64,000 nt of DNA from Candidatus Nomurabacteria bacterium (GTDB taxonomy: Bacteria; Patescibacteriota; Minisyncoccia; Phycocordibacterales; UBA918), in NCBI GenBank assembly GCA_023898585.1, contig CP060229.1, positions 11,388 to 75,387 on the forward strand, written 5' to 3'. The stretch's first letter is position 1; the number at the start of each line of letters is the position of its first letter. The notes below the pieces were generated by a model that was given only the letters and a program-made list of their open reading frames with translations, was not told the origin of the DNA and made no database searches. The position numbers were made by a program, and so were the translations under genes. Shown here piece by piece: positions 754 through 47,678 of the stretch.

Positions 754-884
754 TAAACGAACTCAAGGGCAACAATTGCCGTTTAACACCGTGACCTCTT
801 ACAGTTATCATACAACTATATTTCTCCTTCTTTTATCCCTGTACACAGGTTAATATATAACGATAATGATAAGATTTTGTTAAC

Positions 885-11375: not shown

Positions 11376-12713
11376 CTATTTATAAAATTTTTCAAAATCA
11401 ACCAGACGTTTCTCGTCGTTTATATAAAGCTGTTTCGTTCGTAGTGAAGAAAAGGCATCTAACATTTCAGCATCTGATGGCTTCACGCCTTTACTTAAGG
11501 TACTCACATAAGTACGCCAAGCGTCACCCCCAAAGTGAAAAAGTATCATGCCCCCTTGTCTTCTGTCAGTACCTATAGGCGAGTAATACAAGGTGTGTTT
11601 AAGTCCCTTTTCCATAAAAGCCTCGTGGTACGCCAATTGCTTGGGCAAACAATTAGCCCCATACTCACCAACAATAACCGGTACCTGTTTCGTCGGCAGA
11701 TCGCGTAGAATATCGTTGAATTCAGCAACAAGTATCCGCTTGGCTCTTTTTTTCGTAAATGTTGGGAATAAACCATCAATAACTCCGCACGAACTGGCCG
11801 AATAATTATGAATCGTGTAAGCAAGATTATCGTCAACATCTTCAAGCTTAATTTCATCGCTAGCAAACACATCCAGTTTGGTCGCCCAGTTATCTCCATC
11901 AAGAATAATGAGGTGGTTCTTGTCAACGGAGCGAATAGCCAAGATGACATCTCGATAAAAATTAAGAAGTACCGAGTCACGTTCGGGTGTGTGCGGATAA
12001 TTATTCGGTTCGTTCATGATGTTGTAGCCAAATATAGTCGGCTCGTGAGCATAATACTTTGCCAACATAATCCACAACTCCAGAGTTTTGTCTCTGTATT
12101 CCTTGTCGTGAAAAAACGGTGCTTCATTCACACTGAGCGTAGGGTCACAGTAACTGGCAGAATTTTGACACCCGGGCACGGTTTGAACGTCAAGCATGAT
12201 ATAGGTGTCGTATTCTTTCGCCCAAGCAACAAGTCTGTCTAAATACTGCAAACCTTTGTGTCGTTCATCAAACATCCAGTAGGCGACCGGGACACGAAAT
12301 GTATTAGCTCCCATCTTGGCCAAAGTGAAAATATCCTCTCTGGTATAAAAATTGTCACGCAATTTTTGGTAAAAGAAGTCTCCGTACCCTTCCTCTACAT
12401 TAGTATCTAAAAAGGTCCGAATGGACGGCTCGTGACCGACTCCTCCTAATTGACTCCCATACCCGGCCAGCAACCAATCCTCAACCTGAAGCCAATCCGG
12501 CAAGTTAAACCCTTTTACACGAAAAGGCTCTCCGCCCGGAGCCACAATCTCACCCGCTTCCGCGTGAACAAAGCCGGTTTTTGTGTACGACTGCGTTGGT
12601 TGTCCAAATTGATATTCCATACTATTCAGTCCGTTACTAAATACCGTATAAAAAATCAATATAAGCGTGATTGCAAACACAGTAACTGAAATTCGGTGTA
12701 ATAAACGTCTCAT
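11376..12713 (-). CDS. secreted/membrane-anchored glycoside hydrolase family 5 (cellulase-like)
   Basis: N-terminal signal-anchor helix; GH5 acid/base NEP motif (GYNIMNEPNN) and nucleophile motif VIVGEYG. Confidence 0.75.
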   Translation of the reverse strand: MRRLLHRISVTVFAITLILIFYTVFSNGLNSMEYQFGQPTQSYTKTGFVHAEAGEIVAPGGEPFRVKGFNLPDWLQVEDWLLAGYGSQLGGVGHEPSIRTFLDTNVEEGYGDFFYQKLRDNFYTREDIFTLAKMGANTFRVPVAYWMFDERHKGLQYLDRLVAWAKEYDTYIMLDVQTVPGCQNSASYCDPTLSVNEAPFFHDKEYRDKTLELWIMLAKYYAHEPTIFGYNIMNEPNNYPHTPERDSVLLNFYRDVILAIRSVDKNHLIILDGDNWATKLDVFASDEIKLEDVDDNLAYTIHNYSASSCGVIDGLFPTFTKKRAKRILVAEFNDILRDLPTKQVPVIVGEYGANCLPKQLAYHEAFMEKGLKHTLYYSPIGTDRRQGGMILFHFGGDAWRTYVSTLSKGVKPSDAEMLDAFSSLRTKQLYINDEKRLVDFEKFYK

Positions 12714-12739: not shown

Positions 12740-13654
12740 TTAATATATGGAGAAATGACCGCCTGTTATATGGCCATATCCAGAATCAGAACTGCAATAA
12801 GCTTCCACGCCAGCAGCCCGAGCGGCGTCTCTTTCTGCACAATCTTGGGTTTCGTATACGGCTCTACGCCCAGAAGCAGAAGCTGCGGAATGAATGCTGG
12901 TTATGTTAGACAGCGAGCATTTTCCTGAGTTATCAGCCGGACGGCAGTCAATGTCGACGCAAGTTCCATTTCGATGGCAGGCATTGGTGTGCCCGATTTC
13001 AGTTCCTGCCGTAACAACCACTCCACACTCTGGACAAGCCAGGTGAATATCAACAATATCCTCTACAGTTTCAGTTTGCATTCCGGCCAATCCGGTACAT
13101 TGACGTTGTGACGGGTCGGTACACTCGCCACTAGCTAGTACAACAATACCTTCATCGTCAAATCTCCCTTTCACCCAACTCTCTGATCTACCTGTCCCTA
13201 CCCCCAAGGGAGGCTGACTTCCACTCAACTTAACCGGCCTTGGCGCCTGAGAAGCAGTCAACGAACTACACTCAATCTTCGACCAAAACAATTTTCCGTC
13301 AATCCTGCCGTCACCACCTATCAAAAGTCCTTTCATGACAGTATCAACCATAAGCCAGGCCGCCAAAACGATAATGATACCGATAATAGCGTTGGCTATC
13401 ATGTTTTTAGCGTCTTCTTTGGCTCCCGGATTACCGCCAGAAGTGACCAACTTAAAACCAGCTACCACAATGAGTACAGCAAAGACAACCATCAAAACTC
13501 CGATCAACCATTTTACGATTCCGTTCGCCATTTGTACGAAATGACACTCGGTACACATGGGTTCTCCGGCTCCGCCACAGGTTACGAAGTCGGCGAAGAC
13601 AAGAGTTGGGAGGAGGGTGAGGGTAAGTAGTATGTATAACTTTGCGTGTTTCAT
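12740..13654 (-). CDS. secreted pilin-like (TrbC/VirB2-like two-helix) module fused to Cys-rich C-terminal domain (possible cell-wall hydrolase)
   Basis: Signal peptide, then two hydrophobic helices with GGNPGAKEDAK loop identical to the paralog at 13684..14703; C-terminal 150 aa Cys/His-rich (GHTNACHRNGTCVDID, SGYGHITGGH). Confidence 0.6.
   Translation of the reverse strand: MKHAKLYILLTLTLLPTLVFADFVTCGGAGEPMCTECHFVQMANGIVKWLIGVLMVVFAVLIVVAGFKLVTSGGNPGAKEDAKNMIANAIIGIIIVLAAWLMVDTVMKGLLIGGDGRIDGKLFWSKIECSSLTASQAPRPVKLSGSQPPLGVGTGRSESWVKGRFDDEGIVVLASGECTDPSQRQCTGLAGMQTETVEDIVDIHLACPECGVVVTAGTEIGHTNACHRNGTCVDIDCRPADNSGKCSLSNITSIHSAASASGRRAVYETQDCAERDAARAAGVEAYCSSDSGYGHITGGHFSIY
13265..13626. 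repeat. 362-bp perfect direct repeat, copy 1 (covers the 5' coding part of the pilin-hydrolase gene)
   Basis: By-eye base-for-base identity with 14314..14675. Confidence 0.8.
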
Positions 13655-13683: not shown

Positions 13684-14703
13684 TTAACCCTTTAATTTTT
13701 CCGATACGTCACCCACCTTTTTTACATAAGATCTGGTTTCTATATAGCCGGTATTCGGAACACAATCGGTCTTGCCTGTATTATAACAGCCGTCAGAATT
13801 CCATTCACATTCCCACCGCATCAACCCAGGACAATTTTTACTAGGTTCGTTGGCACCTTTACCTCCGTTATATCCAGCATAAATTTTCCTTTCGTCGCCC
13901 TCATAAGCTTTATATAAATCAGCGTAAATCTTTGCCCCGAGACCGATGTTATAATTATCATCATCGCGCAATTTTTGACTTATTTCAGCATCACTCAAAT
14001 TTTTTAGAGCCGGATCATATCCCCTTGCTGTCCCGGGCATTATCTGCATACAGCCCTGTGCACCAACGGGACTTGTTTTACTTCGACAACCACCCGACTC
14101 CACTCTCATCAAAGCTTGCAAATTCCTGGTTTGTTCCGCGTCTAATCCAGCCAAAGCTGCCGCTTGAACAACTTTATCGTCTGGCGCTGTTAGAGATGCT
14201 ATCGATGCTATTTGAGCCGGAGTCAGAGTTCCTTTGGCAGGGTCATAAGCAGTTCCGCGTGAGGCGTCCGGTGTAGGGTGAACAATTTTGGGTGGAAATG
14301 TTTGCGCCATCACACTACACTCAATCTTCGACCAAAACAATTTTCCGTCAATCCTGCCGTCACCACCTATCAAAAGTCCTTTCATGACAGTATCAACCAT
14401 AAGCCAGGCCGCCAAAACGATAATGATACCGATAATAGCGTTGGCTATCATGTTTTTAGCGTCTTCTTTGGCTCCCGGATTACCGCCAGAAGTGACCAAC
14501 TTAAAACCAGCTACCACAATGAGTACAGCAAAGACAACCATCAAAACTCCGATCAACCATTTTACGATTCCGTTCGCCATTTGTACGAAATGACACTCGG
14601 TACACATGGGTTCTCCGGCTCCGCCACAGGTTACGAAGTCGGCGAAGACAAGAGTTGGGAGGAGGGTGAGGGTAAAAAGAGTTAGGAGAAGCGAATATTT
14701 CAT
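13684..14703 (-). CDS. secreted pilin-like (TrbC/VirB2-like) module fused to SLT-family lytic transglycosylase domain
   Basis: N-terminal 120 aa identical to paralog; C-terminal SLT motifs RVESGG, GCMQIMPGTA, AGYNGG. Start set at MKYSLLL (ATG 14703). Confidence 0.7.
   Translation of the reverse strand: MKYSLLLTLFTLTLLPTLVFADFVTCGGAGEPMCTECHFVQMANGIVKWLIGVLMVVFAVLIVVAGFKLVTSGGNPGAKEDAKNMIANAIIGIIIVLAAWLMVDTVMKGLLIGGDGRIDGKLFWSKIECSVMAQTFPPKIVHPTPDASRGTAYDPAKGTLTPAQIASIASLTAPDDKVVQAAALAGLDAEQTRNLQALMRVESGGCRSKTSPVGAQGCMQIMPGTARGYDPALKNLSDAEISQKLRDDDNYNIGLGAKIYADLYKAYEGDERKIYAGYNGGKGANEPSKNCPGLMRWECEWNSDGCYNTGKTDCVPNTGYIETRSYVKKVGDVSEKLKG
14314..14675. repeat. 362-bp perfect direct repeat, copy 2
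   Basis: Identical to 13265..13626; divergence begins immediately outside both ends. Confidence 0.8.
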
Positions 14704-14878
14704 ATAAATAACCAATGGGGTGACAACTTATAAAAATGTTTTACTAACAAACAAGCTGATTGTATTAAAATCACTAACATGAAAATGATAGCACAACAAA
14801 ACTTCCAAAATCGCTTGAGATGTGATATTTTGTTCGCACTCAAGAGTATTCCAATACTTTGAGTTTCAGATTTAATTT

Positions 14879-15401
14879 GCGTCGGTGGAGTAGTATAGGC
14901 AAACTGCTTTGCTTATACTCCGGTCACAAGCTATGCTTGTGAGGCGACGTTGTGAGCATTTGCAAATCAGGGTGAATCAGTTTGGGAAACTGATTCGCGG
15001 GGGCCCGACACCCGCGATTGCCACGCGTTAGCATGACGTTCAAAATTTTATTTGCGTCGGTGGCGGAGTGGATGAGAAATGAAATGTTTCATTTCTCATC
15101 CGTTCTGCGAGCGATAGCGAACAGATTGGTCAATGTGAACGAAAGTGAACAGACCAAAGGAGGACAATGTAATTGATCACGGAGAAACCGTGCAAAATAA
15201 ATTGTCTTTCTACGAAATACAATTTATTTTGCGTCGGTGGCGGAGTGGACAGAAAGTGAACAGTTTCACTTTCTGTCTGATCTGTCGCTTGCGACAGAAT
15301 TGCCGATGTTTATGAGGCAATAAGAGGACAATGAAATTGACCGCGTTTATGTCGCAGAGTTTCTGATGATATAAATGGAGTCAATTCACACAAAATTCAA
15401 C
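14879..15401 (+). repeat. three tandem ~175-bp units each starting with the tRNA-Tyr 5' end (TTGCGTCGGTGG(C)GGAGT) followed by a perfect hairpin; decayed tRNA-Tyr duplicates
   Basis: Units start at 14879, 15052 and 15232 with the same upstream AAATTTATTTTGCGTCGGTGGCGGAGTGGA context as the intact tRNA at 15404. Unit 2 retains the D-loop TGGTCAAT. Confidence 0.7.
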
Positions 15402-15403
15402 TT

Positions 15404-15489
15404 GCGTCGGTGGCGGAGTGGTCAATCGCATTAGACTGTAAATCTAACGGATTTATCCTACGCAGGTTCAAATCCTGCCCGGCGCACCA
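15404..15489 (+). tRNA. tRNA-Tyr (anticodon GTA), class II, CCA encoded
   Basis: Acceptor GCGTCGG/CCGGCGC, anticodon loop CTGTAAA, long variable arm GGATTTATCC, T-arm GCAGGTTCAAATCCTGC. Confidence 0.85.
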
Positions 15490-15881: not shown

Positions 15882-16658
15882 TTAAGACACCTTTTGCAAG
15901 TCTTTTAATAATACCTCATGTTGGTCTCTAAACAACCGAGGTGGTACTTTTAAGACGGAGTGGATGCGTTTTTGATTGTAATAATTAATCGTCTGATAAA
16001 TAGTAGCCACTAACTCACCGAGAGTATCAAACCGGTTTGGGTCACCTAAGTCCAATTTGAACCCTTTATAGAAACTCTCTTGGTAACCATTCTCCCAGGG
16101 ACAACCGGGGGCACTCATGGACTGTTTGATACCAAGCTTTTGGGTTAAGGCAGTGTAGTCTTTTGAGCAGTACTCACTCCCTTGATCGGAATGAATAATC
16201 CGTGGAGGAGCTCGATGGAGCACTGCTGAAGCCAAAGCGTTAATGACGAGCTGTGTCTGATGTGTTGTCAATATCGATACACCAACTATCTCTCTAGTGT
16301 ACGTATCGAGTACTGTAGCCACATACAACCACTTTCCTCGATATTTAAGATAGGTGAAGTCTGAGGCATATATATCACCTGGCCCTCGTGGTTCCTCACT
16401 CATTAAATAGTTGGGAAACACACTACCTTTAGGCTTTCTATAGACTTTTTTGGCTGTTCTTCGATAAGGTTTGATGTCAAAGAGTTTCATCACCCGTAGC
16501 ACCTTCTTCTTGTTCATCTTGAGGTGTTGCGATAACCGTTTGTGTCCGTACCCTGGATGCTCACGAAGAGCCGTCTCAATCTGTTGCTTGGTGTGCCAAT
16601 CCTTTTGAGGTTGTTTATGGTGATAATAGTGATGCGTACGTGAATAACCGATCACCAT
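15882..16658 (-). CDS. IS3-family transposase OrfB (DDE integrase core)
   Basis: rve-like DDE domain: YASDFTYL, HSDQGSEY, ESFY..FK motifs. Confidence 0.8.
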   Translation of the reverse strand: MVIGYSRTHHYYHHKQPQKDWHTKQQIETALREHPGYGHKRLSQHLKMNKKKVLRVMKLFDIKPYRRTAKKVYRKPKGSVFPNYLMSEEPRGPGDIYASDFTYLKYRGKWLYVATVLDTYTREIVGVSILTTHQTQLVINALASAVLHRAPPRIIHSDQGSEYCSKDYTALTQKLGIKQSMSAPGCPWENGYQESFYKGFKLDLGDPNRFDTLGELVATIYQTINYYNQKRIHSVLKVPPRLFRDQHEVLLKDLQKVS

Positions 16659-16927: not shown

Positions 16928-18331
16928 ATTGCTTGTATTGTTTAAGTGATAATACTTGCAAAAGTTGTCTTAAGAAAGGGGTACCTTTCAGATAAGCAAG
17001 TGCTTTCGATAGATGCACAGCTCACCGAGTTGCGGGCGTTTGCTCGGGAGCAAGGTTTGCAGATCGTAGAGGAATTTGTTGAGAAGCAATCTGCCAAGTC
17101 TCTTGGGCGCCCTATCTTTGGTGAGATGCTTGAACGGATAGAGAGTGGTGAAGCACAAGGTATCGTGTCATGGGCGCCCGATCGCCTCGCCCGCAATTCC
17201 GTCGATGGAGGTAGGGTGATCTATCTCCTCGACACTGGCAAACTTGCGAGCCTCAAATTTCCAACCTTCTGGTGTGACAATACCAGTCAAGGAAAATTTA
17301 TGCTCTCTATGGCATTTGGACAAAGCAAATACTATGTTGATTCTCTTTCCGAAAATACGAAACGCGGACTGCGCCAAAAAGTCCGTATGGGGCATTGTCC
17401 GAGTTTAGCTCCTGTGGGGTATATCAACGATGTTCGAACAAAGACTATTACTGTGGACAAAAAGCGTTCCAAGATAATCAAGCAAGTATTTCAAGAGTAT
17501 GTTAAAGGCAACATGCGACTGGAAGATGTGGCGGACTTTTTGGCACACTCCGGCGTTACCACCAGAACCGGAAAAAGAATCTCCAAGACCAAGGCGTCTT
17601 TTATCCTCTCCAACCCCTTCTACATCGGTTTGTTCAAGTACGGTGGTGAACTCCACGAAGGCAAGCACGAGCCAATCATTGCAAAGAAACTGTTTGATGA
17701 AGCGCAGGCAGTTTTGAAACGCCGTGGACAACCAGACCGCAAACCCAAGAATGAACCGCAGCCATACTGCGGACTCATTTCCTGCGCTTCCTGCGGGATG
17801 ATGATCACTGCCGAGAACAAAACGAAGCGACAGAAGAATGGAAACGTGCATCACTATGTGTATTATCGGTGTACGAAAAAATCTAAGACACAAAGGTGTA
17901 CTGAAATGTCGCTTCGCTCTGAAGAAATGGATCGGCAGGTATCATCACTTATCAAATCGGTTTCTTTGCCCACAGACTGGGCGGAGGAATTGAATCGCGT
18001 GGCGATAGTCGAACACAAAACCTCCGCCCACTCTGCGACGCGTCTCGTGAAAGAGAAGGAGGAGAACATACAAACCATTGCGATCAAACTAGAGCGACTT
18101 TTGAATGGTTACCTCGATCAAGTGATTGATGAGCAAGATTATCGCACGCAAAAAGCAAAACTGCTCTCCGAAAAGAAGTCACTCGAAGGTGAAATTACTT
18201 CTCTTTCACACCACGCGAATGATTGGCTCGCACCTTTCGAGGATTGGCTAAAAGACGCTATGGACTTGGACAAAATCGCTTCTGATAGTAACCTTTTTGC
18301 CAAAAAGGTTACCGCCAAAGAAATCTTTGGC

Positions 18332-18479
18332 TCGCACCTCCGCCTCGGCGGAAAAGTCGTCGCTGTCGCCGCAGGCGACGCGCCGCAAAACGGCTCTGTT
18401 TATGCCCCAACGCAGTGGGCGGCACTTCGTGCCGCCCACTCGTCCGTCGGTTTTGAGCCGACAAGTTCAATATTGGTGC
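18332..18479. repeat. right 148-bp inverted repeat
   Basis: Reverse complement of 15484..15631; last 6 bp are the tRNA-Leu ...TGGTGC (CCA end). Confidence 0.8.
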
Positions 18480-18563
18480 CCGGGGCGGGAATTGAACCCG
18501 CACGCCACTTTGAATAGCAAGGGATTTTAAGTCCCTCGTGTCTACCGATTTCACCACCCGGGC
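18474..18563 (-). tRNA. tRNA-Leu (anticodon TAA), class II, CCA encoded
   Basis: Minus strand: GCCCGGGTGGTGAAATCGGTAGACACGAGGGACTTAAAATCCC...GGGTTCAATTCCCGCCCCGGGCACCA. Confidence 0.85.
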
Positions 18564-22397: not shown

Positions 22398-23729
22398 ATG
22401 AAAAAATGGTTTGAAGTTGCAGAGAATTGGGTGACTATAAATGTCATCCCGCGCATAAAAACTTTCAGAAGGAAAAAAAGTGTTGGGGCTTCAAAAGTTG
22501 TAGATGGTGTACCTTACCGAAAACATCACGGACTGATTATAAACCCTGTGTGGCTAAACATGTTTTGGAGACCTGTCATAAGTACTTTTATTGGAGCTTT
22601 GATAGCTCTAATAATCTGGATACTGTTTGGTTTAGAATTATCGAACCAAAGATTGTTCTGGGGAACAGCCTTGTTAGCATGTGTAATAATCGCGAGTACT
22701 TTATGGGAGTATCCGGAGACACAGCATATACCCAAAAAAAAGTTTGCTATACTGAGCATTTGGGGCATGCGCATTTCTGTATACTTCTCTGAAGGACGCT
22801 ATGACTGGTCGCTAAGAAAATTTGGTATCCGAATAGAGAAGGACGAGCCAAACGACAGTGCGGCTGTTGACGAGAGCGGTTATCTGCATCGAAAAGCATT
22901 TACGTTCAGAGTCTACAATAATGCTGATTTCGAGAAAGAAAAAGGTCCGGAATACAACATTTTGTCAACTGCAAGCAATGGTGCTGAGGTTAGTTCTAAC
23001 GTCACCGCAAACGTATGTTTCTTTAATGCCAAGCGTTGGCAGGATCACGAGGATCCAAATCAACTTCTTGGAGAAACACTGCGGGACGCTCACCGCTCGT
23101 CAGTAAGGTTTTTCCAGGACAAAAACGCTGCTAAACTAGGCAACGTATTTGACCAGTTGCTGATGCAAAAAACCATCCTTGTCGCGTACCGATCTGACAC
23201 AGGGTCAGTCGTACAAGACCGGGGTAATCATCCTATGTTTTTAGCAGTAGAAGTAGCAGAGCCAGAGGATAAACTCAAAGAAAGTGTCACACTGTTCAGA
23301 AATGGTCTGGCAGATAAAGGTAAACAGGATGACTTGGACAATGTGCACAGAAATAAAGAGAACGAGCTTGAGGTTCATATGTTGAGTGTTAGTAACATCC
23401 TACGTAACCCGCTTGAAACTCTTGGTATATATTTCGAAGGAGTGAAGGTGGCAGATGCTATCGCCTCGGAAGAGGTACGAAAGCAAGCCAACCGAGCATC
23501 TGGAGAAGACTATCAACTGGAAAGCAACGTGAAAAGCGCTGAAGCTTATAGCAAATCCCTTGGAATAAGAAGGACAGCTTCTGAAGATACTTCTGAGTTC
23601 CTGCAGGCGCTGACTGCAGCTGAAGATTCCGAAAGGGTTCATGCTGTAGGTATAGGCGGAGGAAATAAGATAGCGCAAGCAGCAGCAACACACGCAATAC
23701 TTTCAAAAAATGAAGGAGATAGGAAGTGA
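22398..23729 (+). CDS. membrane protein with SPFH/band-7-like domain
   Basis: Two N-terminal TM helices, then pattern resembling stomatin/flotillin (AILSIWGMRIS; NILSTASNGAEVSSNVTANVCFF; A/E-rich C-terminal helix). Weak. Confidence 0.4.
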   Translation: MKKWFEVAENWVTINVIPRIKTFRRKKSVGASKVVDGVPYRKHHGLIINPVWLNMFWRPVISTFIGALIALIIWILFGLELSNQRLFWGTALLACVIIASTLWEYPETQHIPKKKFAILSIWGMRISVYFSEGRYDWSLRKFGIRIEKDEPNDSAAVDESGYLHRKAFTFRVYNNADFEKEKGPEYNILSTASNGAEVSSNVTANVCFFNAKRWQDHEDPNQLLGETLRDAHRSSVRFFQDKNAAKLGNVFDQLLMQKTILVAYRSDTGSVVQDRGNHPMFLAVEVAEPEDKLKESVTLFRNGLADKGKQDDLDNVHRNKENELEVHMLSVSNILRNPLETLGIYFEGVKVADAIASEEVRKQANRASGEDYQLESNVKSAEAYSKSLGIRRTASEDTSEFLQALTAAEDSERVHAVGIGGGNKIAQAAATHAILSKNEGDRK

Positions 23730-25069
23730 ATAATACTGAAAAACTCAAAAACCTGCTATCGAAAAACTTGGTGATAATACCCATATTTTTCATTGCTTCG
23801 TATCTTGTTGCAACGGGGATTTTGCAGGAGTTCACTGAATCTCCTGCAAACCAACCGACGCAAAAAGAAATTGTACAAAAAAAGACTCCGGCAACGGAAA
23901 GAAGGACTTTATCTGGATCACAAAAACTTGCGGTAGTACATACAGAAAAGAACGAATGGTCTTTTTTAGCACTGTTCATAGCAGCCGGTCTGACGTTTTT
24001 TGTCGCGATACTACGCGGTGGATGGGATGCTAAAACAGATTACCCGCTAGTGGCGAGAATACTGTTTTACACTACCGCCGGTGCATTGATTGTTGTTTTT
24101 ATCTCATTTTTGTTTTTTGGCGAAGAAACCACCGAGGATGTAATCACAGAAGCAAGAGAAGCGGCACGACAGTCAGCAAGGGAAAATCTGCTCGGGGAAT
24201 CTTTCAGTAAGTATTTCGACACCACAAACGGATACCCGCGGAAAATGGTCGATCCAGGAGACAACTACAGGATTGTGGAGAAGTGGAACGGCAAGGATGC
24301 CACTCCGGAAAATTGTCTGCCTGAATTTCAGGTTAACGGAGTAACAATGAGAGCACCTCTCGTCTACCCGAAAGGCCATGAAAAAGAAGGACAGTTGTTT
24401 GACTTCGCCAACAATGGAAGGTGTCGTTCTGGCGTTAATGGTCAGAGACTTATACCCATAACACCAGAAATGGTGAAGGAGCGTAGTCTAGAAGTAAAGG
24501 TCGCTAAGGCGTGGGAGGTGGCAAGGGAGAATCCATGGATTGCAGGAGCGGTGGTGGTGTTGATACCACTGTTCCTGTGGAGGATATTCGGGTCTGGGAA
24601 ATCAGGTGAGACAAAGCCGGCAAAACGATCGACAGCACTGGATGTGTTGATCATAGTTGTTGTACTAGGCCTAATCCTGTTTACCCTCGATCGGACCGGC
24701 ACCCTAGGCAAAGTGTTGCCTTGGGCCGGAACGGTAAGGGCGACGGAGTCGGTGGAGCAAAGGAATTGCTACACCGACGATATGTCAAGCAAAATCAGGT
24801 TTGGCGAGAAAGGACAGACCATTCTGATCTGCGATGGTCAGGGCACGGTCAGACTGATCGCTGAATATGGACATGACGACCTTCGGCTAAGCATACCTAA
24901 GAATTTCAGTGAGGAGACCGGCATTACTGCCTGGAAAAATCACATGGAACTTAAAAGGGACGCTTACAGGAACACGTTCCGCTGGTACCTCGAACCCTTT
25001 AAGAATGCCGTCGACAAAAACGGCAGAACTGTTCAGGCGATACCGGTGACGATAACAGCCACCAGATAA
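23726..25069 (+). CDS. polytopic membrane protein, hypothetical (possible partner of SPFH protein)
   Basis: ATGA start overlap with upstream gene; about five hydrophobic helices. Confidence 0.45.
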   Translation: MNNTEKLKNLLSKNLVIIPIFFIASYLVATGILQEFTESPANQPTQKEIVQKKTPATERRTLSGSQKLAVVHTEKNEWSFLALFIAAGLTFFVAILRGGWDAKTDYPLVARILFYTTAGALIVVFISFLFFGEETTEDVITEAREAARQSARENLLGESFSKYFDTTNGYPRKMVDPGDNYRIVEKWNGKDATPENCLPEFQVNGVTMRAPLVYPKGHEKEGQLFDFANNGRCRSGVNGQRLIPITPEMVKERSLEVKVAKAWEVARENPWIAGAVVVLIPLFLWRIFGSGKSGETKPAKRSTALDVLIIVVVLGLILFTLDRTGTLGKVLPWAGTVRATESVEQRNCYTDDMSSKIRFGEKGQTILICDGQGTVRLIAEYGHDDLRLSIPKNFSEETGITAWKNHMELKRDAYRNTFRWYLEPFKNAVDKNGRTVQAIPVTITATR

Positions 25070-25431: not shown

Positions 25432-25809
25432 TTAGTTACAAGCTCTGGTGGCTGAATCCAGATCGCCACTCAAGCCAAAGGTATTGGCAGCGATAGCAAG
25501 GATGGTGAAGGCGGAAAGCATCACCACTAGCCCAATGATGCCGTAGGTGATGTGCTTGACGCCATCTTGTCTTGCTTGATCATTCGTTGCATTCATAAAA
25601 TACTGCCCGCAACCCCAAAGAAACACCAAAAAAGCAACAGCCGATAGTAGAGCGATGGTGGGATAAAGAATAACATCATTTAACTTAGCAACGAAACAAG
25701 CAGCTTGATTAGCAGCCTGGTCGGAAGGAGTTTGAGCAAATAAAGCGATGGGCAGAATGATCAGACCGGAAATTGTCGAAACTAAATACGAGACCTTATT
25801 AACTTTCAT
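25432..25809 (-). CDS. pilin-like two-helix membrane protein (TrbC/VirB2-like family), paralog A, with signal peptide
   Basis: Signal peptide, then helix-loop-helix with WGCGQYF...ITYGIIGLVVML motif shared by the family. Confidence 0.6.
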   Translation of the reverse strand: MKVNKVSYLVSTISGLIILPIALFAQTPSDQAANQAACFVAKLNDVILYPTIALLSAVAFLVFLWGCGQYFMNATNDQARQDGVKHITYGIIGLVVMLSAFTILAIAANTFGLSGDLDSATRACN

Positions 25810-26013
25810 TAGAATAGTTTATCACAAAGCAAAATGGTACAACCGGATAATTCACCGCCAAACCACCGCCCACGGTCGCGACCATTATTCTCCAGCTCAG
25901 GGGCAGTCCTCGGACTGAAAAACAACAGAGAGGAGTGAAACGAAAGTGAATGATACCAAAAAAGCCGCTTCGCGGCTTTTAAAGAGGGTACCTGCACCTG
26001 TGCTGTCTTATCG

Positions 26014-26409
26014 CTATGTCTGCTGTTTATTGGGGCCAGTAGGAATATCTGGAGCAGTCTTACCCTGAAGACCAGTACTTGATGAGAGAAGATTAATGAT
26101 TCCCCAGAAGATAATAATCAAAACGAAACCGAGGGTAGCATAAATCATCAGATTTTTACCCGATTCTTTTGCTTCCTCGTTGGCACCTCCAGCAATAAAG
26201 TAACGAAACATTCCCCAGACAAAGACCAAGAAACCTATTGCTAGAATAAATGGGATTAATACACCATTGGCAAATTTTACCAGGTCTGTTAACAGCTCGC
26301 CAAAAGGCCCAGCGTCGGTTGGAAGAACCTTTTGTGCGGTTTGTGCAAAAGTCATTAGAGGAAGCAAAAGCAAACCGACACCACTGACTGAATAAATAAT
26401 TTTTTTCAT
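26014..26409 (-). CDS. pilin-like two-helix membrane protein, paralog B
   Basis: IPFILAIGFLVFVWGMFRYFIAGGANEEAKESGKNLMIYATLGFVLIII. Confidence 0.65.
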   Translation of the reverse strand: MKKIIYSVSGVGLLLLPLMTFAQTAQKVLPTDAGPFGELLTDLVKFANGVLIPFILAIGFLVFVWGMFRYFIAGGANEEAKESGKNLMIYATLGFVLIIIFWGIINLLSSSTGLQGKTAPDIPTGPNKQQT

Positions 26410-26437
26410 AATCTTTTGTATATGTGGATAATTAAAA

Positions 26438-26821
26438 CTAATTGGTCTTATTTATTGCTGGAGCGACAGGTGTCCCAAAACTCGCACCCTCATCAAGACC
26501 GGTACTTTCTGTGATAAGATTGATGACTCCCCAAAATACAATAATCAAGACAAAACCGAGCGTGGCATAGATCATCAAACTTCTACCTGACTCTCTTGCT
26601 TCCTCGTTGGCACCTCCAGCAATAAAGTAACGAAACATTCCCCAGACGAAGACCAAGAAACCTATTGCTAAGATAAATGGTATTAAAATTTTATTTGACA
26701 GATCGACAAGTTCCCTTAATAAAGTGCCAAAAGCATTATTATCAGGGTCAAAGGCTGCTGAAGCTATAAACGGGAGAACCAGAGCCGATGTGCTACCCAA
26801 AATGTACCCAATTTTTTTCAT
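26438..26821 (-). CDS. pilin-like two-helix membrane protein, paralog C
   Basis: Core identical to paralog B (…FIAGGANEEARESGRSLMIYATLGFVLII). Confidence 0.65.
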   Translation of the reverse strand: MKKIGYILGSTSALVLPFIASAAFDPDNNAFGTLLRELVDLSNKILIPFILAIGFLVFVWGMFRYFIAGGANEEARESGRSLMIYATLGFVLIIVFWGVINLITESTGLDEGASFGTPVAPAINKTN

Positions 26822-26923
26822 ACGTATTTTACAAAACTTATAACGTTATAACGTTTACATTTAATTATAGTTCATACGTAATAACAAAACGATGAACTAT
26901 CCACAATGGAAATTGAGTATTGG

Positions 26924-27322
26924 TTATGGTCGAGGGACCGGGACGGTAGGAACATTGCGCAAAATCTCCCCGTCAAGACCGGTACTGGAGGTGATGAGGT
27001 TGACCACACCGAAGAAGATTATTATCACAACGAAACCGATGACCGCGTAAATCATCAAGCTCTTGCCTTTTTCTTTTTTCTCTTCATCGGCTCCACCGAG
27101 AATGAAGAAGAGAAACATGCCCCAGACGAAAAACAGGAAACCGATACCGATAATGAACGGTATCAAGACATTGTTAATAAACACCATAAGGTTCAACAAT
27201 AGTTCTTGAAATTCGCCACCATCGCCGGTATCGGCGAATTGAGCCAGGGCTGAATTAGGCAAAAAAGCCAACATCAAGAAGGCTGTTGCTCCACTGATCA
27301 TTCTTTTAATTTCGGATTTCAT
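26924..27322 (-). CDS. pilin-like two-helix membrane protein, paralog D
   Basis: IPFIIGIGFLFFVWGMFLFFILGGADEEKKEKGKSLMIYAVIGFVVIII; start placed at MKSEIKRMISG. Confidence 0.6.
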   Translation of the reverse strand: MKSEIKRMISGATAFLMLAFLPNSALAQFADTGDGGEFQELLLNLMVFINNVLIPFIIGIGFLFFVWGMFLFFILGGADEEKKEKGKSLMIYAVIGFVVIIIFFGVVNLITSSTGLDGEILRNVPTVPVPRP

Positions 27323-27397
27323 ACTTATTATTTTCGAAAATATTATGTTAATACTATACATCAGAATGTTGAATTGTAAATAGCTAGATGTGTTTTT

Positions 27398-27652
27398 CTA
27401 TCCGAACAACGAGTTTTTGATTAAAGCGACGATTCCCCAGGCACTCACCATCACCACAAACACGATCACGGCAGTTAGTGCATATTTCTTCCCTTCATCC
27501 CGTTTCGTCTGATCACCGGCGTGAATAATCCAAGAATCAATCATTTTCCAGATGAAAAATATAAAAAGTACGGCAAAAATGGCCGGAATTATTAGGTTGA
27601 TGATGTCTATAATCGAGCCGATCAGTTCTTTGTAGGTGGTTGGTTTAGTCAT
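27398..27652 (-). CDS. pilin-like two-helix membrane protein, short paralog E (no signal peptide)
   Basis: 84 aa; IFAVLFIFFIWKMI...GKKYALTAVIVFVVMV. Confidence 0.5.
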   Translation of the reverse strand: MTKPTTYKELIGSIIDIINLIIPAIFAVLFIFFIWKMIDSWIIHAGDQTKRDEGKKYALTAVIVFVVMVSAWGIVALIKNSLFG

Positions 27653-27680
27653 AAAATGAATTTGGTTACCGATTACTTTA

Positions 27681-27941
27681 TTATTTAAATCCTGTCACAA
27701 TGCTTTTTACTATCACCATTATCGCTTCCGCCCCGATGATAATTACCCCGCCAATTACTCCATAGAGAAGGGCTCTGCCCGCTTTTTGGATTTGTTCAGC
27801 GTTACCTCTTGCGGTCGCGTACAAAAAACCACCCCAGATGAGGAAAAAAACCACGATGGGAATGAGTACAATGACAAAAACATTCACAATCGCCATGATC
27901 AAATCGGGAATATTTTTAAAAGTAAGCGGGTTACTGAACAT
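27681..27941 (-). CDS. pilin-like two-helix membrane protein, short paralog F
   Basis: 86 aa; FLIWGGFLYATARGNAEQIQKAGRALLYGVIGGVIIIGA. Confidence 0.5.
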   Translation of the reverse strand: MFSNPLTFKNIPDLIMAIVNVFVIVLIPIVVFFLIWGGFLYATARGNAEQIQKAGRALLYGVIGGVIIIGAEAIMVIVKSIVTGFK

Positions 27942-27981
27942 AGATGAATTTGAATTTGATAAATTTACCTTTATGAAGTGG

Positions 27982-28377
27982 CTATGTAGTAAAAGATTTG
28001 ACGATATTTTCGATAATCTTGGACAAGGTTACCGCCCCAATAATAAGCACGCCACCAATGATGGAATAAGTTAAGGAAGTGGTGGCTTTTCTGATTTGTT
28101 CTTGATTGCCACCGGCGGTCACATACTGAAAGCCGGAGTAGATGATGTACAAGACCACAATCGGAATAGCGATGATGATGAAAACATTGAGTATGTCCAC
28201 TATCAATCCTTCAATCGAAGTCGGATTGATAAAACTATCTAGACAAAAACTGATACTGATACCTTTACCTCCTCCACTGAAGCCGGAACAGTTAGAGGCT
28301 AGAGCTTGTTCGGATCCCAAAATAAACATCCCGATTGAAGTTACATTTACCCAAACTAAACGTGATAATTTTTTCAT
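27982..28377 (-). CDS. pilin-like two-helix membrane protein, paralog G, with signal peptide
   Basis: YIIYSGFQYVTAGGNQEQIRKATTSLTYSIIGGVLIIGA; start placed at MKKLSRLV. Confidence 0.55.
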   Translation of the reverse strand: MKKLSRLVWVNVTSIGMFILGSEQALASNCSGFSGGGKGISISFCLDSFINPTSIEGLIVDILNVFIIIAIPIVVLYIIYSGFQYVTAGGNQEQIRKATTSLTYSIIGGVLIIGAVTLSKIIENIVKSFTT

Positions 28378-28403
28378 AATCAATAAACAACCTAACACTT
28401 ATC

Positions 28404-29702
28404 CTAATACTTATCTTTGAGACGTCCGGAAACATCTCTCACTGCAGACGAGACATCATTGCGGTTTTCGTTGATGTCTCTCGCCATGGTAGCAAAAATG
28501 CTTTCAGTCGCACTAAGTTCCGGGTTCAACCAACCCTTGGCAATAAAAGCCGACTTAAAAGATTCCCGTCCGAAGTCGTCATCGCTACCCAAATTAACAG
28601 TACTGCGGTGTGCCGGAGCCATATTGGAAGCGATGGCGATTCTGGTCGCGATATTTTCTCCGCCCAAAAGATTCATTAGATTACCGGCGCCGGTGAAGTT
28701 GTCTGATGACTTAAGCAATGACAGGGCATAAAATTTTCCGTAGGTACGTCTCACCGTCGCGGTTGCACCCTGTGGAATCTCGGCAATGGCAAAATTCAAG
28801 TTGGGATTACTGTTTTCAATCTCGCGACCTTCGCTACCATAACCGAAGTAGAAGACTAGGTCCTCAGAAGTGAAGAGGAAGCGATCTTCAGCCAATGAAC
28901 GATTCCATGAATAGAGAGTGTTGCTTGGCTTGCTGAATTTTGTGTAGAAATCGGCGGCTGAGAAAAGTGGGTCGGAGCCTCCCGGAGCGGATTGTAGCTT
29001 AATGACGTAGTTTCCGTCTTTGTCTTCGGCTACCAACTCTGACCCGCCCTGAATCATAAGAGCGGAGATTATCCCGAAAGCGTTACGGATATTGCTATAC
29101 TCACCCATCGCTACGACACTGCGGTTTATCGTACGGTCGAAATCTCGCGAAATAAGCTCCGGAAACATTATGTTGACCAGATTTTCCCAAGTCTGAGGAG
29201 GGTTCAAATATCCCTTGTTGGTGAGAATATCTTTGTTCCAGTACATCATAAGAGGATCAACCGCAATCGGCAAACCGTACACGCCATCTGACATGTAAAA
29301 GACTGAGGCGCCATCAAGGTATAGATTTCCAAAATCGACTTTTGGAATGGAAACTGGTTGAATGCGCCTGCGCATCTCAACCAACTTTTCCTGTGAGACG
29401 AGAATGAGATCGGGCCCGACCCCATCGGCTAACGCGCTTAATAAGGCGGAATCGAAATCGCTTGGTCGAAAATATCGGTAAGTGACATTATTATAAGCTT
29501 CATTTTCTTCCGCCAGTTCAGACAGGATTTGGTTTATGCCATTTCCGGGTAGGGTGCCCCAAATAGAAACTGTCCCAATGGTAACCAATTCGGATGAAGA
29601 AGAGTTAGACGGTGGGTCGATGATTTTCAGAACAAACAACGCCACAAAAGCGAAGAGTACAAAGATAATCACTAGAGCCAATTCAAAAGGACGCAGTTTC
29701 AT
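28404..29702 (-). CDS. extracellular solute-binding protein-like (ABC-type SBP fold), membrane-anchored
   Basis: N-terminal TM anchor, then SBP-like sequence pattern (VSIWGTLPG...GPDLILVSQE). No permease genes adjacent. Confidence 0.4.
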   Translation of the reverse strand: MKLRPFELALVIIFVLFAFVALFVLKIIDPPSNSSSSELVTIGTVSIWGTLPGNGINQILSELAEENEAYNNVTYRYFRPSDFDSALLSALADGVGPDLILVSQEKLVEMRRRIQPVSIPKVDFGNLYLDGASVFYMSDGVYGLPIAVDPLMMYWNKDILTNKGYLNPPQTWENLVNIMFPELISRDFDRTINRSVVAMGEYSNIRNAFGIISALMIQGGSELVAEDKDGNYVIKLQSAPGGSDPLFSAADFYTKFSKPSNTLYSWNRSLAEDRFLFTSEDLVFYFGYGSEGREIENSNPNLNFAIAEIPQGATATVRRTYGKFYALSLLKSSDNFTGAGNLMNLLGGENIATRIAIASNMAPAHRSTVNLGSDDDFGRESFKSAFIAKGWLNPELSATESIFATMARDINENRNDVSSAVRDVSGRLKDKY

Positions 29703-30247
29703 ATTTTACGAAAAGCTAGCCCGTAGTGGTGATCTCCGGCCGGATATTCTCTATCGAAAGTAAAGCCGTTGGCTTCAAAAAGAATGGTGGCGTCATCGGC
29801 TGAGATGACTTGTTCGGGTTGTGGTCCCATGCCAGCAAATGACTCCGCCCAATCAATGACAAAAAACTTTCCACCGGAGCGAACCGTTCTACCCATTTCC
29901 TTGACAGCGGTTTCTTTGTCTTCAATCAAAAATAAAGTGTTGGACAATAAAGCCACGTCCAACTCTCCATCGTCTATCATAATACCGTTGGCCTCTTCCA
30001 GATCACACCAGAGAGGATGGATATTGGTGAGTCCCATTAGACGGGCTTGATCGCCGAGTTTCTCGACTAGCGGTTTTTGGATTTCGCAGACGTAAACCCG
30101 CCCGGTCCCGCCTGTGGCTTTTGACAAAACTTTAAGAAAAAAACCGCTTCCGGCACCGAAGTCGGCGATTATGTCACCCTCTCTAATATGAAAATGTGTG
30201 GCTACTATATCCGGTACCACAAACCGCCCGCCAATTGGTGTATTCAT
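29699..30247 (-). CDS. class I SAM-dependent methyltransferase
   Basis: Motif I IADFGAGSGFFLKVL; small 182-aa MTase; stop overlaps SBP start (ATGA). Confidence 0.7.
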   Translation of the reverse strand: MNTPIGGRFVVPDIVATHFHIREGDIIADFGAGSGFFLKVLSKATGGTGRVYVCEIQKPLVEKLGDQARLMGLTNIHPLWCDLEEANGIMIDDGELDVALLSNTLFLIEDKETAVKEMGRTVRSGGKFFVIDWAESFAGMGPQPEQVISADDATILFEANGFTFDREYPAGDHHYGLAFRKI

Positions 30248-46894: not shown

Positions 46895-47047
46895 AAAAAT
46901 GGTGTCAGAGGAAAAAATGGTGTCAGAAAAAATGGGGAAAAATGGTGTCAGGGAAAAATGGTGTCAGGTACCTTTTTTAGGTCTTCCCCTCCCTCTAGAG
47001 GGAAAAATGGTGTCAGGTACCTTTTTTAGGTCTTCCCCTCCCTCTAG
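46895..47047 (+). repeat. REP-like tandem repeats: five copies of AAAAATGGTGTCAG, last two extended to a 48-bp unit
   Basis: AAAAATGGTGTCAGGTACCTTTTTTAGGTCTTCCCCTCCCTCTAG twice in tandem, preceded by three shorter copies. Confidence 0.75.
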
Positions 47048-47678
47048 TAGTAGCGTCAAGGTCATACTTATCAATCATATCGCCCGACCACTGCTCTCCT
47101 CCGAACGGCTTACCTTTGTTCACCGAATAACGAGCGACTTCTAGTTCTCCAGCAGTTAGGGGTGTGTGGATAAAATCTTCGTAGTCTCTAGGGAGTGCTA
47201 CTGGTAGTTTCGTTAATAGATTAGCTTTGTTGTTCTCTCTTCTATAGAAACTAGAATACTTCCAGTTATTCAGGTTTTTGACTAGCTTGGCCCTAAGTGG
47301 ATTTCGTTCAACATACCTAATGACAGTTAGCAGGTGTTGATCTTGTTCAATGAGGAAAGATTTATATCGCCCTTGGTACAAGTGCCCTGAACCGATGGTT
47401 TTATTCTGTACGTGCCATCTTTGCGTGTGAGTGAGAGTAAGCCACTGCATAAAACGCTGGAGGTCCCCATCCTTTTTGGGATACAAGATAAGATGGAAAT
47501 GATTAGGCATGATGCAGTATGCAATGATGCGCATATCGTACCTCTCAGCAGCATCTTCCAAGATAGACTCGAACAATTGATAGTCCTCCTCTTTGAAGAA
47601 AATCTTTAGTCTGGCATTGGCACGGTTGATTACGTGATACACCTCGTTACCCACATCTACTCTTGGTACCCTGCCCAT
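47013..47678 (-). CDS. HUH Y1 transposase, IS200-like / REP-associated tyrosine transposase (RAYT)-like
   Basis: N-terminal MGRVPRVDVGNEVYHVINRANARLKIFF (YHV..R.N.R..IF pattern) and HUH motif IMPNHFHLIL; flanked by inverted REP-like repeats. Confidence 0.75.
   Translation of the reverse strand: MGRVPRVDVGNEVYHVINRANARLKIFFKEEDYQLFESILEDAAERYDMRIIAYCIMPNHFHLILYPKKDGDLQRFMQWLTLTHTQRWHVQNKTIGSGHLYQGRYKSFLIEQDQHLLTVIRYVERNPLRAKLVKNLNNWKYSSFYRRENNKANLLTKLPVALPRDYEDFIHTPLTAGELEVARYSVNKGKPFGGEQWSGDMIDKYDLDATTRGRGRPKKGT

What the first reader, a model, noticed from the sequence alone, without database searches (positions are those of the whole stretch)
25432..28398. Tandem array of seven paralogous pilin-like two-helix membrane proteins
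Seven co-directional small genes (84-145 aa) share one architecture: an optional signal peptide, a hydrophobic helix, a short charged loop (AGGANEEAKESGK / TAGGNQEQIRKA / ARGNAEQIQKA) and a second helix rich in G, I and V (LMIYATLGFVLIII). This is the architecture of TrbC/VirB2-type conjugative (T4SS) pilins. Two of the seven lack signal peptides. The same module heads the two hydrolase fusions at 12.7-14.7 kb. A seven-gene expansion of a secreted structural protein suggests a variable surface appendage or secretion-apparatus component, possibly tied to a host-attached lifestyle.
Basis: partly seen in the sequence, partly recalled or inferred. Interest (0 to 1): 0.8.

Follow-up and report, generated by a model that had tools for sequence, protein, structure and literature searches.

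The report
VirB2-like pilin gene array, Patescibacteria
Seven neighbouring small genes in this ultra-small (Patescibacteria) bacterium encode two-helix membrane proteins of the "type IV secretion pilin" family; such arrays were described in 2023-2025, so this is an ordinary new example of a family whose function is still unproven.

Summary
Seven co-directional minus-strand genes (25432-28398) all match Pfam PF18895 (T4SS_pilin) above its curated cut-off. A profile built from them finds only these seven plus the two fusion genes among 713 window ORFs.

The window is chromosomal DNA of a "Candidatus Nomurabacteria" (Paceibacteria) genome. Arrays of 2-11 VirB2-like pilin genes in Patescibacteria are already published, and one is essential in Southlakia epibionticum. 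This is therefore a new member of a known kind.

What this study adds:
- The seven genes are four conserved types, in the order A(A)-B-C(1-3)-D. The order is kept in about 27 related species, always directly after an orphan solute-binding-protein gene. Only type C is amplified here.
- No VirB4, VirB6 or VirD4 gene lies in the 64 kb window or within 10 kb in relatives.
- The link to authentic VirB2/TrbC is weak. It rests on recurrent sub-threshold Pfam TrbC hits for type A only. Fold and PDB searches could not discriminate.
- The same module heads cell-wall-hydrolase fusions that are homogenised by gene conversion.
- Elsewhere the module occurs as single-chain concatemers of 2-17 copies.

The conserved types and the concatemers favour a heteromeric assembly over interchangeable antigenic variants.

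The parts
27982..28377 (-). p7: type-A pilin-like gene with a signal peptide. 131 aa from the ATG; the longest ORF starts at GTG 28398.
   Evidence: PF18895 at 37 bits. PF04956 TrbC E = 1.1e-4, below the cut-off. It is 51% identical to p6. Another assembly calls it as 131 aa.
27681..27941 (-). p6: type-A pilin-like gene without a signal peptide (86 aa).
   Evidence: PF18895 at 35.8 bits. No start codon lies upstream in frame. Short orthologues occur in 12 relatives.
27398..27652 (-). p5: type-B pilin-like gene without a signal peptide (84 aa). It is single-copy in every complete relative locus.
   Evidence: PF18895 at 34.2 bits. There is exactly one type-B gene per locus in 27 relatives.
26924..27322 (-). 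p4: type-C pilin-like gene with a signal peptide. 132 aa; the longest ORF runs to 27361.
   Evidence: PF18895 at 35.2 bits. It is 52-55% identical to p2 and p3. Another assembly calls it as 132 aa.
26438..26821 (-). p3: type-C pilin-like gene with a signal peptide (127 aa).
   Evidence: PF18895 at 33.5 bits. It is 58% identical to p2, and the core DNA is 81-87% identical.
26014..26409 (-). p2: type-C pilin-like gene with a signal peptide (131 aa).
   Evidence: PF18895 at 33.2 bits. For the p2-p3 core, dN/dS is about 0.13.
25432..25809 (-). p1: type-D pilin-like gene with a signal peptide (125 aa). It is the last gene of the array and the most conserved type. A 204-bp gap separates it from p2.
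   Evidence: PF18895 at 32.5 bits. Orthologues are 54-77% identical, with invariant R80, G83 and H86. It is identical to NCBI H6782_00205.
28404..29702 (-). Membrane-anchored orphan solute-binding protein gene directly upstream of the array. Its stop lies 5-26 nt before the p7 start, and it overlaps the methyltransferase gene 29699-30247 by 4 nt. It is probably in the same operon.
   Evidence: Pfam SBP_bac_8 at 43.7 bits. The order methyltransferase, SBP, array is kept in about 27 species.
13684..14703 (-). f2: pilin module fused to an SLT lytic transglycosylase (339 aa from the ATG).
   Evidence: PF18895 at 45.9 bits plus PF01464 at 54.6 bits. The same architecture occurs in more than 80 protein clusters.
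12740..13654 (-). f1: pilin module fused to an unassigned C-terminal domain with an H-x6-D...H motif. A metallopeptidase of the LAS/M15 type is inferred.
   Evidence: PF18895 at 46.2 bits. H222, H227, G230 and D234 are invariant and H300 nearly so in 14 homologues. The fold search was not significant.
13265..13626 (-). 362 bp that are 100% identical to 14314-14675. The stretch covers the pilin module of f1 and f2.
   Evidence: The same within-genome identity is seen in relative L056 but not in L054.

Best explanation
The seven genes encode subunits of the Patescibacteria-specific VirB2-like pilin family (Pfam PF18895).

Shown:
- Each protein is a hairpin of two hydrophobic helices joined by a short polar loop. 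Five have a cleavable-looking signal peptide and two do not.
- The genes fall into four types. Type A is p7 and p6, type B is p5, type C is p4, p3 and p2, and type D is p1.
- These types are kept as orthologues, in the same order, across a whole Paceibacteria lineage. Only type C varies in copy number, from 1 to 3.

Inferred mechanism:
- The precursors are inserted by Sec and trimmed by signal peptidase I.
- They wait in the membrane with both ends outside and the loop inside.
- A VirB4-type ATPase of the chromosomal, Gram-positive-like T4SS, encoded elsewhere in the genome, extracts and polymerises them into a surface filament or conduit.
- In that structure the conserved helices and loop form the core. 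The variable N-terminal segments and the Pro/Gly-rich C-terminal tails face outward, towards the host cell.
- Because all four types are retained, and because the module also occurs as covalent concatemers elsewhere, I favour a mixed (heteromeric) assembly with distinct roles for each type.
For: Family membership:
- PF18895 is above the gathering score for 7 of 7 genes.
- 35 of 39 type-A orthologues also hit PF04956 TrbC/VirB2 at E <= 0.01, best 8.6e-8. No other family recurs.

Structure and constraint:
- The AF2 model of p1 is a helix-turn-helix hairpin with pLDDT 78.5.
- Helices and loop are conserved within each type, while signal peptides, N-segments and tails vary.
- The p2-p3 core has dN/dS of about 0.13.

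Conserved layout:
- Every complete relative locus has exactly one B, one D, 1-2 A and 1-3 C genes, in the order A(A)BC..D.
- Identity to the window's proteins is 55-63% for the pilins. It is 54% for the neighbouring SBP and about 25% for the hypervariable genes downstream.

Concatemers:
- 132 of the best 150 family representatives carry 2 or more modules in one chain, about 106 aa per module.

Literature:
- 441 VirB2-like arrays of 2-11 genes were found in Patescibacteria, and most of those genomes carry VirB4 (PMC12102498).
- The pilin array of S. epibionticum is essential for its growth (PMC10633639, PMC12857230).
Against: - No VirB4, VirB6, VirB3 or VirD4 gene lies in the 64 kb window, in the about 5 kb upstream of it, or within 10 kb of the array in about 29 relatives.
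- Homology to solved or authentic VirB2 is not significant by hhalign, with probability 2.9%, or by an HMM search of PDB sequences.
- Fold searches return thousands of generic helical hairpins.
- Types B, C and D connect to TrbC only through PF18895.
- No pilus has ever been seen on these organisms.
- Two members lack signal peptides, so their membrane topology is uncertain.
- The heteromer idea rests on conservation and on fusion proteins from other lineages, not on any interaction data.
Confidence: 0.55

Rival explanations
1. The paralogues are interchangeable variants of one pilin, kept to vary the exposed surface. This would serve host-range adaptation or evasion, as proposed for the VirB2 paralogues of Bartonella and Anaplasma and suggested for Patescibacteria.
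For: - Type C is present in 1-3 copies depending on the species, and the window has three.
- The exposed N-segments and tails of p2, p3 and p4 have diverged far more than the core: dN is 0.45-0.56 against 0.07-0.18.
- The tails of type-D orthologues are low-complexity and very variable.
- The published interpretation points this way (PMC12102498).
Against: - The four types are each conserved as orthologues at 55-63% identity, in a fixed order, in about 27 species. Types B and D are always single-copy.
- There are no pseudogene cassettes and no recombination repeats inside the array apart from the type-C duplication.
- Three independent assemblies of this organism are 100% identical across the array.
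Confidence: 0.2
2. The hairpins are not pilus subunits. They are a general membrane-embedded module, either an anchor or scaffold, or an oligomeric channel. It works with the co-transcribed solute-binding protein or presents enzymes at the cell surface, independently of a T4SS.
For: - No T4SS gene lies nearby, in the window or in relatives.
- An orphan SBP gene is tightly linked upstream in about 27 species.
- The same module serves as the N-terminal part of SLT and M15-type hydrolases in many genomes.
- It occurs as polytopic proteins of 2-17 hairpins, which cannot polymerise like a free pilin unless they are cleaved.
- There is no significant similarity to solved VirB2 pilins.
Against: - TrbC/VirB2 profile hits recur for type A and for nothing else.
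- In other Patescibacteria the family lies beside virB4 in 1,135 of 1,948 assemblies, and the array sits inside the essential T4SS cluster of S. epibionticum (PMC12102498, PMC10633639).
- SBP-dependent transporters need permease and ATPase genes, and none lies next to the array.
Confidence: 0.2

Closest known systems
VirB2-like pilin arrays of Patescibacteria: six essential pilins in the T4SS locus of Southlakia epibionticum ML1, and 441 arrays of 2-11 genes surveyed in 3,035 genomes (PMC10633639, PMC12102498, PMC12857230)
   Same: - Same Pfam family (PF18895).
- Tandem, co-directional, sequence-divergent paralogues, here 17-58% identical.
- Chromosomal location in an ultra-small, probably epibiotic bacterium.
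   Different: - This array is in Paceibacteria, whereas arrays were reported as most abundant in Microgenomatia and Saccharimonadia.
- It is not near virB4. It sits after gyrA, a methyltransferase gene and an SBP gene.
- Its top pairwise identity (58%) slightly exceeds the reported maximum of 54%.
- The fixed four-type order and the single amplified type are not described in those papers.
TrbC/VirB2 conjugative pilins of Gram-negative MPF_T systems (Pfam PF04956), such as Agrobacterium VirB2
   Same: - Small precursor with a long signal peptide.
- Two hydrophobic helices joined by a short loop.
- Weak but recurrent profile similarity for type A.
   Different: - Below the curated cut-off for the window proteins, and not significant by profile-profile comparison.
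- The loop is about 8 residues longer, and the mature proteins are 84-109 aa. The ~74 aa size of mature T-pilin is from my own knowledge.
- Authentic virB2 sits between virB1 and virB3; these genes do not.
- The host is a monoderm.
VirB1-type and PrgK-type cell-wall hydrolases of T4SSs
   Same: f2 carries an SLT lytic-transglycosylase domain that is predicted to lie outside the membrane.
   Different: The hydrolase is fused to a VirB2-like hairpin rather than to a simple signal peptide or anchor. It is paired with a second fusion to a different domain and is not next to virB4.

Membership tests
Pfam PF18895 T4SS_pilin | Match to the family profile at or above the curated gathering score (26.6 bits) | tested here: met
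   All seven genes score 32.5-37 bits and both fusions score about 46 bits. All 39 type-A and all 34 type-D relatives also match.
Pfam PF18895 T4SS_pilin | Short protein with two transmembrane helices and a short connecting loop | tested here: met
   Hydropathy shows two segments in each protein. AF2 gives helices 28-72 and 77-110 joined by a 4-residue turn in p1, and helices 35-71 and 76-112 in f1.
Patescibacteria VirB2-like pilin array (as defined in PMC12102498) | Two or more pilin genes in tandem, each hitting PF18895 or PF04956 with i-E < 0.001 and more than 50% profile coverage, in a Patescibacteria genome | tested here: met
   Seven adjacent genes have E-values of 3.5e-9 to 9.2e-8 and profile coverage of 72-96%. 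The organism is named Candidatus Nomurabacteria, and the relatives are Paceibacteria.
Patescibacteria VirB2-like pilin array (as defined in PMC12102498) | Association with virB4 (within 20 CDS) | tested here: not met
   No VirB4-like gene lies 25 kb to one side or 36 kb to the other, in a further 5 kb beyond the window start, or within 10 kb in about 29 relatives. The paper finds the same for about 40% of genomes.
TrbC/VirB2 conjugative pilin (Pfam PF04956) | Match to the family profile at or above the gathering score (27.9 bits) | tested here: not met
   The best window protein, p7, scores 22.8 bits with E = 1.1e-4. p6 has E = 4e-3 and p4 has E = 0.047. Among relatives, 35 of 39 type-A proteins hit at E <= 0.01, best 8.6e-8. 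Type D hits in only 2 of 34.
TrbC/VirB2 conjugative pilin (Pfam PF04956) | Detectable homology to authentic VirB2 proteins encoded between virB1 and virB3 | tested here: not met
   hhalign of 39 type-A sequences against eight plasmid VirB2/TrbC proteins gives probability 2.9% and P = 0.015, although in the expected register. Type D gives probability 0.6%.
TrbC/VirB2 conjugative pilin (Pfam PF04956) | Fold matching solved conjugative pilins (F, T, pKM101 and archaeal Ced pili) | tested here: inconclusive
TrbC/VirB2 conjugative pilin (Pfam PF04956) | Polymerises with phospholipid into an extracellular pilus in a VirB4-dependent way | not testable with these tools
   This needs multimer modelling with lipid, cryo-EM or cryo-ET, or shear-fraction proteomics.
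Antigenically variable VirB2 paralogue arrays (Bartonella or Anaplasma type) | Paralogues vary between close relatives without stable orthology | tested here: not met
   Four types are conserved as orthologues, in a fixed order, in about 27 species. Three assemblies of this organism are identical across the array.

The most novel reading that the evidence does not exclude
The four conserved pilin types may be obligatory partners in one heteromeric membrane or surface assembly of fixed composition, not alternative versions of one subunit. Two observations support this:
- every complete locus keeps exactly one B and one D gene, in a fixed gene order;
- other lineages carry natural single-chain proteins with 2-17 of these hairpins joined end to end.

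In addition, the same hairpin, fused to a lytic transglycosylase and to a putative M15-type peptidase, may act as an adaptor. It would load cell-wall-cutting enzymes into, or next to, that assembly so that it can breach the host's wall.
Probability: 0.3. Interest if true: 0.65.

Novelty: new member of a known kind. Interest (0 to 1): 0.33.

Why it matters
The role of the T4SS and its pilin arrays in Patescibacteria is an open question. They are essential in the one species tested, yet no pilus, substrate or direction of transport is known (PMC11665869, PMC12857230).

This locus does not answer that question. It does offer a clean natural comparison:
- a minimal four-gene set (A-B-C-D) that can be tested type by type;
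- one type that amplifies;
- linked hydrolase fusions;
- concatenated versions elsewhere, which predict which subunits sit next to each other.

It also shows that the "VirB2" label on this very large family rests on thin sequence evidence. The family has about 65,000 clusters at 50% identity, and the label should be tested structurally.

Tried and rejected
- **PDB sequence searches.** Family profiles found only spurious hits: rhodopsin at E of about 0.1 and designed "Pizza" repeat proteins.
- **Fold search of full-length f1.** It was dominated by histidine kinases (hairpin plus alpha/beta domain). Sonic hedgehog appeared at rank 7 with E = 1.4, which is only a hint of a LAS fold.
- **f1 C-terminal domain by sequence.** The Pfam and PDB searches found nothing significant.
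- **Profile-profile comparison with authentic VirB2.** Not significant.
- **Promoter and terminator scan of the array.** Counts were no higher than in shuffled sequence, so the operon structure is inferred only from spacing and synteny.
- **Locating VirB4 in this genome.** All attempts failed. The 994,774-bp record is not in the context index. The genome is not in the held part of the supplement of PMC12102498. The region upstream of the window holds type IV pilus genes (PilB, PilT, PilC), not T4SS genes.
- **Reference plasmids.** R388 and RP4 could not be fetched by accession. I used Agrobacterium-type VirB2 hits instead.
- **Phage or mobile-element origin.** No relative was found in IMG/VR.
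- **Homologue search with the SBP.** It returned only close orthologues, so it could not show whether the SBP-array link extends beyond this lineage.
- **Strain micro-diversity.** It could not be assessed, because all other assemblies of this organism are 100% identical.
Full report
**What is there.** Seven ORFs of 84-145 aa lie head to tail on the minus strand between 25432 and 28398, separated by 28-204 bp. Gene calls in other assemblies of the same organism, and the position of signal-peptide-like segments, favour later starts for two of them. That makes p4 132 aa (26924-27322) and p7 131 aa (27982-28377).

Each protein has two strongly hydrophobic segments joined by a short polar loop. Five (p1-p4 and p7) have an N-terminal signal-like segment ending in an AxA-type site. 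p5 and p6 start directly at the first helix. No in-frame start lies further upstream, and their orthologues are equally short in 27 and 12 other genomes.

**Is it more than chance?** Yes. All seven pass the curated cut-off of Pfam PF18895 (T4SS_pilin), at 32.5-37 bits against 26.6. A profile built from the family finds exactly nine of the 713 window ORFs of 40 aa or more: these seven plus the two fusion genes at 12740-13654 and 13684-14715. The next ORF scores E = 0.18.

Pairwise identities define sub-groups. p2, p3 and p4 are 52-58% identical, p6 and p7 are 51%, and p1 and p5 stand alone at about 20-37% to the rest.

**Where it comes from.** p1 is identical to NCBI protein H6782_00205 of a "Candidatus Nomurabacteria bacterium", on a 994,774-bp contig. 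The window is ordinary chromosome. It encodes DprA, TopA, RelA/SpoT, ParB, GyrA, FtsA, FtsZ, signal peptidase I and tRNAs, among others. Eleven kilobases including the array are 100% identical in two other public assemblies.

**Surroundings and T4SS genes.** No ORF in the 64 kb matches VirB4, VirB6, VirB3, VirD4 or a relaxase. The 5 kb beyond the window start encode a HAMP sensor and the type IV pilus proteins PilB, PilT and PilC. That is a different machine. I could not read the rest of the genome.

**Related loci.** A search with type-D orthologues returned 29 species-representative genomes of Paceibacteria. Two further long contigs came from exact look-ups. All share the same gene order: beta-lactamase-fold gene, a small unknown gene, gyrA, a methyltransferase gene, a solute-binding-protein gene, the pilin array, variable convergent genes, and a rhodanese gene.

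Every complete array has exactly one type-B gene (like p5) and exactly one type-D gene (like p1, always last). It also has one or two type-A genes (like p7 and p6) and one to three type-C genes (like p2-p4), always in that order. Array sizes are 4 (seven loci), 5 (eight), 6 (eleven) and 7 (one, plus the window).

The window is therefore not one free seven-fold expansion. It is a conserved quartet with a duplicated A and a triplicated C.

Identity of the relatives' proteins to the window's:

| Protein | Mean identity |
|---|---|
| Pilin type A | 55% |
| Pilin type B | 59% |
| Pilin type C | 60% |
| Pilin type D | 63% |
| SBP | 54% |
| Methyltransferase | 66% |
| GyrA | 87% |
| Convergent genes next door | about 25% |

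Within each type the two helices and the loop are conserved, while signal peptides, N-terminal segments and C-terminal tails vary. The core of p2 against p3 has dN/dS of about 0.13. The termini have diverged close to saturation.

None of the relatives has a VirB4-like ORF within 10 kb. The only large Walker-A proteins there are IF-2 and ClpB. No relative of the family was found in viral contigs.

**How good is the VirB2 label?** Membership of PF18895 is solid. The step from PF18895 to authentic conjugative pilins is weaker.

- Window proteins hit PF04956 (TrbC/VirB2) only below its cut-off, best 22.8 against 27.9 bits.
- I collected eight authentic VirB2/TrbC genes from plasmids, each lying between virB1 and virB3. 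The profile-profile comparison with 39 type-A sequences aligned in the expected register (first helix, loop, second helix). It reached only 2.9% probability. Type D was worse.
- Profiles searched against PDB sequences gave only spurious hits.
- The best positive evidence is recurrence. 35 of 39 type-A proteins hit the Pfam TrbC profile at E <= 0.01 (best 8.6e-8), and no other family recurs. For type D it is 2 of 34.

The rest of the link comes from the literature. In Patescibacteria these genes lie near virB4 in 1,135 of 1,948 assemblies. A six-gene array sits inside the essential T4SS cluster of Southlakia epibionticum (PMC12102498, PMC10633639, PMC12857230).

**The fusion genes.** f2 is the pilin module plus an SLT lytic transglycosylase. 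That architecture occurs in more than 80 protein clusters. Other proteins with the same N-terminal module carry Peptidase_M15_3, VanY, Peptidase_M15_4 or Hedgehog-type domains.

f1 carries a domain with no Pfam match. In 14 homologues H222, H227, G230 and D234 are invariant and H300 nearly so. That pattern fits the H-x6-D...H zinc site of LAS/M15 peptidases. This is inference, because the fold search was not significant.

The f2-f1 pair is syntenic in relatives. In the window the two genes share 362 bp of 100% identical DNA covering the pilin module, and are unrelated on both sides of it. The two modules are also identical within relative L056, but only 37% identical within L054. That points to recurrent gene conversion.

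With both ends of the hairpin outside the cell, the enzyme domains would be extracellular.

**Family size and concatemers.** A profile search of 1.84 billion representative proteins found 64,939 clusters at E <= 0.001. This agrees with a report that PF18895 dominates freshwater-specific protein clusters (bioRxiv 10.1101/2025.04.23.650224).

Of the best 150 hits, 132 carry 2 or more modules in one uninterrupted chain (up to 17 stretches by the remote search), at about 106 aa per module. That ranking favours long proteins, so the fraction is not representative of the family. The proteins come from several independent sources. I found no mention of such concatemers, or of the hydrolase fusions, in the papers I read.

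**Interpretation.** The most likely reading (0.55) is the published one, applied to a new lineage. These are VirB2-like subunits that a T4SS encoded elsewhere in the chromosome assembles into a surface structure used in contact with a host.

My data add a preference for a mixed assembly of four non-redundant types. The grounds are fixed order, single-copy B and D, purifying selection on the core, and covalent concatemers elsewhere.

Two rivals remain:
- Interchangeable variants for host adaptation (0.2). This fits the amplification and terminal divergence of type C, but not the stable orthology.
- A T4SS-independent membrane module linked to the SBP and to surface enzymes (0.2). This fits the lack of nearby T4SS genes, the fusions and the weak VirB2 similarity, but not the recurrent TrbC hits or the published linkage to virB4 in other classes.

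**Verdict.** The phenomenon is already in the literature, so this is a new member of a known kind and of modest interest. The function of the family remains unproven.

Noticed in passing
window 14866-15421: There are four direct copies, about 175 bp apart, of a ~22-31 nt unit that contains the leader and first ~18 nt of tRNA-Tyr (the real gene is at 15404-15489). The three upstream copies are 5' tRNA fragments, each followed by its own hairpin. An rve integrase gene (15882-16658) and a serine recombinase gene (16946-18517) lie next to them. They may be scars of repeated integration.
   Followed up: no
window 13265-13626 and 14314-14675: 362 bp are 100% identical between the adjacent fusion genes f1 and f2, with unrelated sequence on both sides. 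The two modules are also identical in relative L056 but only 37% identical in L054. This suggests recurrent gene conversion of the pilin module.
   Followed up: partly
window 12740-13267 (C-terminal half of f1): This domain has no Pfam family. H222, H227, G230 and D234 are invariant and H300 is nearly invariant in 14 homologues, which resembles the LAS/M15 zinc-peptidase motif. Sequence and fold searches were not significant.
   Followed up: partly
window 28404-29702: An orphan, membrane-anchored solute-binding protein gene (SBP_bac_8) lies 5-26 nt upstream of the array and overlaps a methyltransferase gene by 4 nt. No permease or ATPase gene is adjacent. This order is conserved in about 27 species.
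   Followed up: partly
window 22398-25069: Two convergent genes sit between the array and the rhodanese gene. One encodes 443 aa with one predicted TM segment and the other 447 aa with about five. They have no Pfam match and are hypervariable between species, at 18-30% identity or undetectable.
   Followed up: no
window 25432-25470 (C-terminus of p1): The window's p1 lacks the C-terminal CAxDPxxxGC motif that nearly all orthologues have. That motif is probably a small disulfide loop. p1 also lacks the Gly/Pro/Ser-rich tail seen in many of them.
   Followed up: no
window 1-762 and loci L058-L061 upstream of the window: The window starts inside a HAMP sensor gene. Just beyond it lie the type IV pilus genes for PilB, PilT and PilC (T2SSE, T2SSE and T2SSF in Pfam terms), next to dprA.
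   Followed up: partly
database proteins P0241, P0242, P0249, P0256 and others (not in the window): These are single polypeptides of 300-1775 aa built from 3-17 tandem T4SS_pilin hairpins, at about 106 aa per module. They come from several independent metagenome sources. The papers I read do not mention them.
   Followed up: partly
window 11376-12713: A GH5 cellulase-family gene lies directly downstream of f1 on the same strand. f2, f1 and GH5 therefore look like one operon of wall- or polysaccharide-degrading enzymes.
   Followed up: no
window 47013-47678: An IS200/Y1-type transposase gene lies beside a MacB/HlyD-type ABC export cluster at 48183-51718.
   Followed up: no
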